A stretch of DNA of 10,286 bases from a virus. Lineage: Duplodnaviria; Heunggongvirae; Uroviricota; Caudoviricetes. The stretch spans positions 1 through 10,286 of IMG/VR virus record IMGVR_UViG_2740892231_000002; one strand, given 5' to 3'. The translations under genes were made by a program, and so were the position numbers. A model generated the notes under the pieces. That model searched no databases, had not been told where the DNA came from, and worked only from the letters and a program-made list of their open reading frames with translations. This document shows, in pieces, positions 1,566-1,667 of this stretch (positions are counted from its first letter, which is position 1; each line of letters opens with the position of its first letter).

Positions 1566-1667
1566 ACATACATTATCTTTAGTAATCGCAAAATAAGCAA
1601 ATACTTGACTGGTTTATTTAGTTGTGTATAAACTTTTACTTGTTCTAAATGTGCTGAGATAAAAATT
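1566..1667. promoter_or_regulatory. Divergent immunity promoter/operator region
   Basis: AT-rich 102-bp intergenic region. Plus strand: TTGACT (1605-1610), 16-bp spacer, TATAAA (1627-1632), upstream of the cro-like gene. Minus strand: TTGCTT (complement of 1595-1600), 17-bp spacer, GATAAT (complement of 1572-1577), ending about 7 nt before the repressor ATG at 1565, with no Shine-Dalgarno visible. Confidence 0.45.

What the first reader, a model, noticed from the sequence alone, without database searches (positions are those of the whole stretch)
1566..1667. Back-to-back divergent promoters with an apparently leaderless repressor transcript
The minus-strand -10 (GATAAT) ends about 7 nt before the repressor ATG and there is no Shine-Dalgarno, suggesting a leaderless mRNA as for lambda cI from P_RM. 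The two -35 elements are about 5 bp apart on opposite strands. Operators cannot be assigned confidently; a weak AAATAA...TTATTT symmetry spans the -35 boxes.
Basis: seen in the sequence. Interest (0 to 1): 0.45.

Follow-up and report, generated by a model that had tools for sequence, protein, structure and literature searches.

The report
Prophage switch with leaderless repressor gene

Summary
Observation confirmed, interpretation supported, novelty low.

Window 1566-1667 is the whole gap between a leftward 123-aa repressor gene (1194-1565) and a rightward cro-like ydaS gene (1668-1949). The element is an E. coli lambdoid prophage.

- **Orthology.** The repressor is an orthologue of PaaR2 from prophage CP-933P of E. 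coli O157:H7. It is 75% identical overall, and residues 1-58 are about 90% identical to PDB 7NKV/8C3K.
- **Published experiments.** For CP-933P, 5' RACE, N-terminal sequencing and mass spectrometry showed that transcription from PRM starts at the paaR2 ATG (Jurenas 2021, PMC8630535).
- **Same promoter geometry here.** The window keeps -35 TTGCTT (1600..1595), a 17-nt spacer, -10 GATAAT (1577..1572), 6 nt, then the ATG at 1565. PR is TTGACT (1605-1610), 18 nt, TAAACT (1629-1634). Four bp separate the two -35 boxes.
- **Family-wide spacing.** In 24 of 38 species-level relatives from Gamma- and Betaproteobacteria the ATG lies exactly 6 nt after the -10. Those 6 nt are almost free to vary.
- **New details.** A second repressor-like gene (713-1174) sits in the same operon, and the PR half of the switch has diverged from CP-933P.

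The parts
1194..1565 (-). paaR2-type repressor gene (123 aa), the CI equivalent. The ATG is at 1565..1563 and the predicted transcription start is A1565.
   Evidence: 75% identical to CP-933P PaaR2. Residues 1-58 are about 90% identical to PDB 7NKV/8C3K/8C3L. It has no Pfam hit. There is no in-frame start upstream.
1566..1571 (-). 6-nt stretch between the PRM -10 and the ATG (GTATGT on the minus strand). Its length is conserved; its sequence is not.
   Evidence: The gap is 6 nt in 24 of 38 loci, with 22 distinct 6-mers among 24 distinct sequences and 0.21 bits per column. Position 1570 is A, G or T among window-type E. coli variants.
1572..1577 (-). PRM -10 hexamer, GATAAT
   Evidence: Invariant in 5 E. 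coli variants. The family equivalent is CAAAAT/CACAAT at the same position.
1577..1594 (.). Operator IR1, an 18-bp imperfect palindrome CTTTAGTAA|TCGCAAAAT, filling the PRM spacer. The half nearer the -35 is degenerate here (5/9 to consensus).
   Evidence: The half-site position-weight matrix (PWM) scores 9.6 at 1577-1585. It aligns with CP-933P CTTTAGTAATCACTAAAC. The published footprint and the consensus GTTTAGTAA are in PMC8630535.
1595..1600 (-). PRM -35 hexamer, TTGCTT (3/6 to consensus)
   Evidence: 17 nt from the -10. 1.89 bits per column across the family.
1605..1610 (+). PR -35 hexamer, TTGACT
   Evidence: Promoter scan. Invariant in the E. coli variants. It is part of the 15-mer AAGCAAATACTTGAC conserved across genera.
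1612..1633 (.). Operator IR3 region over the PR spacer and -10. The canonical 18-mer is ATTTAGTTG|TGTATAAAC (1616-1633), with an extra overlapping half-site GTTTATTTA (1612-1620).
   Evidence: Half-site PWM scores are 10.5 (1612-1620), 4.6 (1616-1624) and 7.2 (1625-1633, minus strand). The family consensus at this position is GTTTAGTGTTTAATAAAC.
1629..1634 (+). PR -10 hexamer, TAAACT (18-nt spacer). TATAAA at 1627-1632 with a 16-nt spacer is an alternative reading.
   Evidence: Scan. ATAAACT is kept in nearly all family loci.
1668..1949 (+). ydaS, the cro-like gene (93 aa). Its only Shine-Dalgarno candidate is a weak TGAGA at 1655-1659.
   Evidence: Pfam PF15943 YdaS_toxin, E = 1.3e-9. 63-66% identical to CP-933P-type YdaS.
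1946..1963 (.). Exact YdaT box TTGATTCATGAAAATCAA at the ydaS/ydaT junction. This is the likely activator site of a leftward PRE-type promoter.
   Evidence: Zero mismatches to TTGATTN6AATCAA. The motif comes from PMC9986795 (abstract). PRE933P activation by YdaT is reported in PMC8630535.
1953..2378 (+). ydaT, the cII-like gene (141 aa)
   Evidence: Pfam PF06254 YdaT_toxin, E = 3.2e-10.
166..195 (-). PL/OL copy. A leftward promoter TTGACT-18-TAAACT with half-sites GTTTAGTTT, GTTTATTTT and GTTTATACA.
   Evidence: Scan. 30-nt inverted copy of 1605-1634, 83% complementary. PWM scores 11.1, 9.8 and 7.2. PL933P is described in PMC8630535.
713..1174 (-). Second repressor-like gene (153 aa), 19 nt after the paaR2-type stop. 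It has a canonical HTH_3 DNA-binding domain joined to a PaaR2-like C-terminal domain.
   Evidence: Pfam HTH_3, E = 1.7e-10. Alignment. Annotated in RefSeq. dN/dS is 0.26 against strain BA92.
553..744 (-). paaA antitoxin gene
   Evidence: Pfam PF21217 PaaA2, E = 1.1e-20.
265..552 (-). parE toxin gene
   Evidence: Pfam PF05016 ParE_toxin, E = 1.2e-16.

Best explanation
Window 1566-1667 is the OR-type genetic switch of a CP-933P/Sp12-like lambdoid prophage of E. coli.

- **Leftward promoter (PRM).** A weak promoter (-35 TTGCTT 1600..1595, 17 nt, -10 GATAAT 1577..1572) starts transcription at A1565. That base is the first base of the ATG of the PaaR2-type repressor, so the mRNA has no 5' leader and no Shine-Dalgarno. 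It is presumably translated through its 5'-terminal AUG. The same transcript would carry the second HTH gene, paaA and parE.
- **Rightward promoter (PR).** A stronger promoter (TTGACT 1605-1610, 18 nt, TAAACT 1629-1634) drives ydaS (cro-like) and ydaT (cII-like).
- **Operators.** The repressor and YdaS compete for palindromic operators built from GTTTAGTAA-like half-sites. IR1 lies in the PRM spacer and IR3 lies over the PR spacer and -10. A second operator set lies at PL (166-195).
- **Second route to the repressor.** YdaT bound at the exact box 1946-1963 probably fires a leftward PRE-type promoter, which would give a second, long-leader transcript of the repressor gene.

Shown here: the orthology, the conserved geometry, the operator half-sites, the PL copy and the YdaT box. 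Shown by others for the orthologue: the transcription starts, leaderless translation, footprints and repression. Inferred for this sequence: that the transcription start is A1565 and that the proteins bind these sites.
For: 1. **Repressor orthology.** The protein is 75% identical to CP-933P PaaR2. Residues 1-58 match PDB 7NKV/8C3K with E = 1.8e-31.
2. **Published experiments on CP-933P.** They comprise 5' RACE, N-terminal sequencing, mass spectrometry, EMSA, DNase I footprints and gfp fusions (PMC8630535).
3. **Shared PRM sequence.** Window 1572-1610 differs from CP-933P at only 3 positions, all inside IR1. Hexamers and spacings are identical. The 6 nt before the ATG differ (GTATGT against TACCAC) but their number does not.
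4. **Four window-type E. coli variants.** All keep the hexamers and the 6-nt gap while position 1570 varies.
5. **Species-level relatives.** Of 38 loci that carry the core GTCAAGTATTTGCTT, 24 have exactly 6 nt between the -10 and an in-frame ATG, 5 have 5 or 7 nt, and every start codon is ATG. Information content is 0.21 bits per column in the gap against 1.6-1.9 in the hexamers.
6. **Viral contigs.** In IMG/VR, 40 of 45 in-context hits have CAT exactly 6 nt from the -10.
7. **Leadered relatives as a contrast.** Pasteurellaceae and Orbaceae relatives keep the operator and -10 but add a 19-27 nt leader carrying AGGAG. The family therefore does use a Shine-Dalgarno whenever a leader exists.
8. 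**Operator consensus.** The half-site consensus re-derived from 30 loci is GTTTAGTAA, identical to the published one. Five of the 7 best half-site scores in the 10.3-kb window lie in OR or OL.
9. **PL copy and YdaT box.**
Against: - No transcript data exist for this sequence.
- By consensus alone PRM is poor (8/12) and was not called by the scan.
- The promoter-distal half of IR1 is degenerate here (TCGCAAAAT against TCACTAAAC in CP-933P).
- The PR half of the region has diverged, so regulation could differ quantitatively from CP-933P.
- The 6-nt gap creates two extra out-of-frame ATGs (ATGTATGTATG). A start a few bases upstream would put a wrong-frame AUG at the 5' end.
- I could not see the figure that shows the exact +1 in the paper. 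Only the text states that the start 'matches the predicted translation start'.
Confidence: 0.87

Rival explanations
1. The repressor gene is expressed mainly or only from a leadered transcript. The source would be the YdaT-dependent PRE-type promoter near 1946-1963 or another upstream promoter. On this view the GATAAT/TTGCTT pair is inactive in this variant.
For: PRM is a weak consensus match (8/12, below the scan threshold). An exact YdaT box exists, and PRE933P is active with YdaT in CP-933P. IR1 is partly degenerate here.
Against: The hexamers are identical to those of the experimentally active PRM933P. The -10/6-nt/ATG geometry is under selection across the family. No Shine-Dalgarno precedes the ATG, so a long-leader transcript would be the harder one to translate. 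A PRE transcript would exist alongside the PRM transcript, as in lambda, and would not replace it.
Confidence: 0.07
2. Transcription starts 1-4 nt upstream of the ATG, for example at G1567 or A1569. This would give a very short leader or a wrong-frame 5'-terminal AUG rather than a strictly leaderless mRNA.
For: The minus-strand sequence ATGTATGTATG offers alternative purines just upstream. Start sites can wander by a base or two; this rests on general knowledge of sigma-70 promoters.
Against: A1565 is the 7th base after the -10, the commonest start position. A1569 would be only the 3rd. The orthologue's start maps to the ATG with the same spacing. The spacing is fixed at 6 nt in 24 of 29 short-gap loci.
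Confidence: 0.05
3. The promoter-like hexamers are chance matches in an AT-rich spacer and have no regulatory meaning.
For: The scan finds as many promoter-like sites in shuffled sequence (9.8) as in the real window (11). The total count of half-sites in the window equals that in shuffles (16 against 15.5).
Against: The arrangement is conserved at base level across Enterobacterales and Burkholderiales and in viral contigs. Half-sites cluster in OR and OL. The orthologous region has been footprinted.
Confidence: 0.01

Closest known systems
PaaR2 / YdaS / YdaT immunity switch of cryptic prophage CP-933P (Sp12) of E. coli O157:H7 (Jurenas et al. 2021, PMC8630535)
   Same: - Orthologous repressor (75% identical), Cro-like YdaS (63%) and YdaT.
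- A divergent gap of about 100 bp, with identical PRM and PR hexamers and spacings.
- The ATG lies 6 nt after the PRM -10, which is the leaderless arrangement.
- GTTTAGTAA-type operators, a PL copy and a YdaT box.
- paaA-parE lie downstream in the repressor operon.
   Different: - The gap is 102 bp against 97 bp.
- The PR spacer, leader and Shine-Dalgarno have diverged, and overall DNA identity is 72%.
- The distal half-site of IR1 is degenerate.
- A second repressor-like HTH gene is inserted between the repressor gene and paaA.
- The window type is rare: about 19 of 5426 complete E. coli genomes, against about 590 for the CP-933P type.
Bacteriophage lambda OR: cI transcribed leaderless from PRM, divergent from PR-cro
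   Same: It works the same way. A weak, repressor-dependent leftward promoter has its start on the A of the repressor ATG. A stronger rightward promoter drives cro-cII. Shared operators overlap both promoters, there is a distant OL/PL copy, and a CII-type activator provides a second, leadered repressor transcript. The lambda facts are as summarised in PMC8630535.
   Different: There is no sequence homology to lambda CI. There is no S24 self-cleavage domain (no Pfam hit), so induction is not RecA-dependent; PMC8630535 reports no response to mitomycin C. The operators are 18-bp GTTTAGTAA palindromes, with four IRs reported in CP-933P rather than three 17-bp sites.
RacR / YdaS / YdaT of the E. 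coli K-12 Rac prophage, and DicA / DicC of Qin
   Same: The layout is the same: a leftward repressor and a rightward YdaS/DicC-like Cro followed by YdaT (PMC8630535; PMC11879457).
   Different: The repressor family and the operators are different. CP-933P YdaS and YdaT are only 26% and 31% identical to the Rac proteins. I found no statement on leaderless racR and did not test this further.
LexA-like (S24 peptidase) phage repressors of Yersinia, Proteus, Erwinia, Brenneria and others that carry the same N-terminal DNA-binding domain
   Same: The N-terminal domain is 60-80% identical. The OR DNA cassette is the same, including the -10/6-nt/ATG geometry.
   Different: Their C-terminal half is an S24 peptidase (PF00717), so they are presumably SOS-cleavable. 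The window protein instead has the short helical PaaR2 C-terminal domain.

Membership tests
CP-933P-type (PaaR2/YdaS/YdaT) lambdoid immunity region | Repressor with the PaaR2 N-terminal DNA-binding domain and the PaaR2 C-terminal domain | tested here: met
   phmmer against PDB 7NKV/8C3K gives E = 1.8e-31 over residues 1-62. Full-length identity to O157:H7 PaaR2 is 75%.
CP-933P-type (PaaR2/YdaS/YdaT) lambdoid immunity region | Divergent ydaS (cro-like) and ydaT (cII-like) genes next to the repressor gene | tested here: met
   PF15943, E = 1.3e-9, and PF06254, E = 3.2e-10. YdaS is 63-66% identical to the CP-933P-type protein.
CP-933P-type (PaaR2/YdaS/YdaT) lambdoid immunity region | Back-to-back PRM and PR promoters in a gap of about 100 bp, with the PRM -10 placed so that +1 is the A of the ATG | tested here: met
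   Hexamers and spacings are identical to CP-933P in alignments A1 and A6. This is geometry only.
CP-933P-type (PaaR2/YdaS/YdaT) lambdoid immunity region | Transcription start mapped on the translation start, and protein made from the leaderless mRNA | not testable with these tools
   This needs 5'-end mapping and N-terminal sequencing. It has been done only for the CP-933P orthologue (PMC8630535).
CP-933P-type (PaaR2/YdaS/YdaT) lambdoid immunity region | Operators built from GTTTAGTAA half-sites overlapping both promoters, with a second set at PL | tested here: met
   The consensus was re-derived from 30 loci. The top-scoring half-sites cluster at 1577-1633 and 167-189. One half of IR1 is degenerate. 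Binding was not tested.
CP-933P-type (PaaR2/YdaS/YdaT) lambdoid immunity region | YdaT box TTGATTN6AATCAA at the ydaS/ydaT junction | tested here: met
   Exact match at 1946-1963.
Three-component paaR-paaA-parE toxin-antitoxin operon | The regulator gene is directly followed by paaA and parE | tested here: met
   paaA (PF21217) and parE (PF05016) are present. However, the gene directly upstream of paaA is the second HTH gene (713-1174), not the PaaR2 orthologue.
Lambda CI / LexA-like (S24) repressors | C-terminal S24 self-cleaving peptidase domain | tested here: not met
   The 123-aa protein has no Pfam hit. Relatives with the same N-terminal domain do carry PF00717. The window protein therefore works like CI but is not a member of this family.

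The most novel reading that the evidence does not exclude
In this prophage type a single leaderless PRM transcript would encode two CI-type repressors. They have different DNA-binding domains: the atypical PaaR2 domain and a canonical HTH_3 domain. Their C-terminal oligomerisation domains are closely similar. In other E. coli prophages the second protein is the sole CI equivalent.

Here it could give the lysogen immunity against that second, heteroimmune phage type. It could also form mixed oligomers with the PaaR2-type repressor, which would couple two operator specificities or the control of the paaA-parE module.
Probability: 0.15. Interest if true: 0.55.

Novelty: new member of a known kind. 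Interest (0 to 1): 0.22.

Why it matters
It shows that a reader working from sequence alone correctly recognised a rare bacterial feature, a leaderless repressor mRNA. It also adds a diverged natural variant to the one characterised CP-933P switch.

The comparison gives a practical rule for annotating this repressor family: a -10 hexamer, then 6 nt, then the ATG. Databases often give these genes false upstream starts or miss them altogether.

The wider point is modest but useful. A regulatory cassette of about 75 bp travels with its DNA-binding domain across two bacterial classes, while the C-terminal half of the repressor is exchanged. The leaderless start is kept, except in lineages that have added a leader with a Shine-Dalgarno.

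Tried and rejected
- **AAATAA/TTATTT symmetry as operator: rejected.** The left arm is AAACAA in BA92, SCU-171 and CP-933P, and the right arm is absent in CP-933P.
- **Consensus promoter scan.** It is not informative on its own: 11 sites against 9.8 expected, and PRM is not called.
- **Pfam on the 123-aa protein.** No hit. Identity came from PDB sequences instead.
- **First genome-contig scan with the single protein.** It found nothing. The alignment-based scan worked.
- **Supplementary Table S1 of PMC8630535 (promoter sequences).** It is held without its content. The hexamer assignment in CP-933P is therefore mine, derived from the stated start site.
- **Rfam.** No RNA family in the window.
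- **15-mer scan of viral contigs.** 75 of 120 hits lack the OR context and are probably chance matches. Only the 45 in-context hits were used.
- **Operators for the second (type-B) repressor.** A search for words shared with the OR of loci L057 and L058 found nothing convincing.
- **A promoter for the second HTH gene in the 19-nt gap 1175-1193.** There is only a poor TATAGA and no -35. I treated this gene as co-transcribed.

Full report
**What is in the window.** The window is 99.9% identical to a prophage of E. coli O91 strain RM7190. That prophage is integrated next to potC and carries an integrase, dicB, replication genes and an antiterminator. Around the finding the genes are:

| Gene | Coordinates | Strand |
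|---|---|---|
| parE | 265-552 | - |
| paaA | 553-744 | - |
| HTH_3 gene | 713-1174 | - |
| 123-aa ORF | 1194-1565 | - |
| ydaS (cro-like) | 1668-1949 | + |
| ydaT (cII-like) | 1953-2378 | + |

The finding's coordinates, 1566-1667, are exactly the gap between the two divergent start codons.

**Check of the observation.** Every sequence statement is correct.
- The minus-strand -10 is GATAAT (1577..1572), followed by 6 nt (GTATGT) and then the ATG at 1565.
- The minus-strand -35 is TTGCTT (1600..1595), with a 17-nt spacer.
- The plus-strand -35 is TTGACT (1605-1610), followed by 18 nt and the -10 TAAACT (1629-1634).
- Four bp separate the two -35 boxes.
- No Shine-Dalgarno-like motif precedes the ATG, and no in-frame start codon lies further upstream before the stop at 1616..1614.

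Consensus matching alone does not prove anything. The scan finds 11 promoter-like sites against 9.8 in shuffles, and PRM is below its threshold.

**Identity of the repressor.** The 123-aa protein has no Pfam hit. Its first 58-62 residues match PDB 7NKV, 8C3K and 8C3L with E = 1.8e-31 and about 90% identity. Those entries carry the N-terminal sequence of PaaR2 from E. coli O157:H7. The full-length protein is 75% identical to PaaR2 from an O157:H7 genome, and YdaS is 63-66% identical.

**What is published for the orthologue.** Jurenas et al. 2021 (PMC8630535) studied the CP-933P prophage.
- The paaR2-ydaS gap is 97 bp and holds the PRM933P and PR933P promoters.
- 5' RACE places the PRM start on the paaR2 translation start.
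- N-terminal sequencing (MQKKE) and intact mass confirm leaderless translation.
- PaaR2 and YdaS footprint across the gap and repress both promoters.
- Low levels of PaaR2 stimulate PRM.
- The operators are 18-bp palindromes with half-site consensus GTTTAGTAA.
- A PL copy exists.
- YdaT activates a PRE-type promoter.
- PaaR2 lacks the self-cleavage domain and does not respond to mitomycin C.

**Comparison of the DNA.** Window 1572-1610 differs from CP-933P at three positions, all inside operator IR1. Both -35 boxes, the PRM -10 and all spacings are identical. The 6 nt before the ATG differ in sequence (GTATGT against TACCAC) but not in number. The PR spacer, leader and ribosome-binding site have diverged.

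Three further window-type E. coli variants keep the hexamers and the 6-nt gap while individual bases vary. The window type is rare. About 19 of 5426 complete E. coli genomes match at 90% identity or more, against about 590 that carry the CP-933P type at about 72%.

**Family-wide test of the leaderless geometry.** A profile of the N-terminal domain retrieved 52 species-level loci. Thirty-eight of them carry the core GTCAAGTATTTGCTT upstream of the repressor gene. They come from Enterobacterales and from Burkholderiales and other Betaproteobacteria.
- In 24 loci the in-frame ATG lies exactly 6 nt after the -10. In 5 more the gap is 5 or 7 nt.
- All start codons are ATG, and none of the 38 has a Shine-Dalgarno in the usual window upstream.
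- Among 24 distinct sequences there are 22 different 6-mers in the gap. Information content there is 0.21 bits per column, against 1.6-1.9 in the hexamers.
- In IMG/VR viral contigs, 40 of 45 in-context hits show the same spacing.
- Relatives in Pasteurellaceae and Orbaceae keep the operator and -10 but have a 19-27 nt leader carrying AGGAG.
- A Xenorhabdus/Photorhabdus group has a 54-85 nt leader.

Selection therefore acts on the distance, not the sequence, between the -10 and the ATG. That is the pattern expected if the A of the ATG is the transcription start.

**Operators.** From 30 loci I re-derived the half-site consensus GTTTAGTAA, the same as the published one. In the window, 5 of the 7 best-scoring half-sites lie in OR (1577-1585, 1579-1587, 1612-1620) or OL (181-189, 176-184). 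Weaker ones lie at 1625-1633 and 167-175.
- IR1 (1577-1594) fills the PRM spacer. Its half nearer the -35 is degenerate here.
- IR3 (1616-1633, with an extra half-site at 1612-1620) covers the PR spacer and -10.
- The region 166-195 is an inverted 30-nt copy of the PR promoter and is the PL/OL analogue.

**Other parts of the circuit.** An exact YdaT box, TTGATTCATGAAAATCAA, lies at 1946-1963 on the ydaS/ydaT junction. A long-leader repressor transcript from a PRE-type promoter is therefore expected in addition to the leaderless one. Finding such a transcript would not by itself refute the leaderless PRM transcript.

**Mechanism and confidence.** I put 0.87 on the statement that this is a CP-933P-type switch whose PRM transcript starts at A1565 and is leaderless. 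The rivals are:

| Rival | Confidence |
|---|---|
| Expression only from a leadered transcript | 0.07 |
| A start a few bases upstream | 0.05 |
| Chance resemblance | 0.01 |

What is shown here is homology and conserved geometry. The transcription start and the protein binding are inferred from the orthologue.

**Novelty.** The phenomenon is published for the orthologue, so this is a new member of a known kind. Two points differ from the characterised system.
- The PR half and part of IR1 have diverged.
- A second repressor-like gene sits between the PaaR2 orthologue and paaA.

That second protein has a canonical HTH_3 domain and a PaaR2-like C-terminal domain. It evolves under purifying selection (dN/dS 0.26). 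In other E. coli prophages it is the only CI equivalent, and there too the ATG lies 6 nt after a TAAAAT hexamer. No operators for it were found in the window.

Noticed in passing
window 713-1174 (-): A second repressor-like gene (153 aa) sits 19 nt downstream of the PaaR2-type gene and has no evident Shine-Dalgarno or promoter of its own. It combines a canonical HTH_3 domain with a PaaR2-like C-terminal domain. In other E. coli prophages (L057, L058) its relatives, 54-66% identical, are the sole CI equivalent next to cro-like/ydaT and paaA-parE. Here it is C-terminally extended by about 21 aa and overlaps paaA; in strains GF60 and SCU-171 it has normal length. dN/dS is 0.26. The tandem arrangement occurs in 17 of 5426 complete E. 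coli genomes.
   Followed up: partly
loci L013-L046 and L061-L175 (upstream of the repressor gene); window 1566-1634: The whole OR cassette is conserved at DNA level across Enterobacterales and Betaproteobacteria and in viral contigs. The cassette reads CAT-6nt-ATTTTG-IR1-AAGCAA-ATAC-TTGACn-IR3/TAAACT. The C-terminal half of the repressor, by contrast, is either PaaR2-type or an S24 peptidase. Pasteurellaceae, Orbaceae and Xenorhabdus/Photorhabdus relatives have leadered versions.
   Followed up: partly
L057 2181-2205 and L058 2189-2205 (minus strand): The type-B repressor genes of other E. coli prophages also have an in-frame ATG exactly 6 nt after a TAAAAT hexamer. In L057 this ATG is 3 codons upstream of the annotated start. 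This suggests that leaderless repressor genes are common in YdaS/YdaT-type immunity regions.
   Followed up: no
window 1946-1963: An exact YdaT-binding box, TTGATTN6AATCAA, overlaps the ydaS stop and the ydaT start. It implies a PRE-type leftward promoter.
   Followed up: partly
window 166-195 (-): A PL-type promoter, TTGACT-18-TAAACT, with clustered operator half-sites. It is an inverted 30-nt copy of PR.
   Followed up: yes
window 1565-1586; proteins P0001, P0004, P0006, P0007, P0020; phage hits H122-H124: Database gene models for this repressor family are often extended upstream to false starts. One example is the 130-aa MTKDNVCMETKE..., which would need a non-canonical start codon; others are the 144-150 aa versions of PaaR2. 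The gene is also left unannotated in three phage records. This is consistent with gene callers failing on a gene without a Shine-Dalgarno.
   Followed up: no
window 2575-2620, 2855-2904, 2974-3023: Three clusters of 10-bp GTCACGAC repeats lie inside the replication-initiator gene region and are probably origin iterons. Two identical promoter-like hits at 2999..2972 and 2880..2853 belong to these repeats.
   Followed up: no
window 3475-3964: A 250-bp tandem duplication: 2 copies, 94% matching.
   Followed up: no
window 2915-2924, 3246-3255 and one further run: The window contains 30 N bases in runs of 10, which are masked or unknown bases.
   Followed up: no
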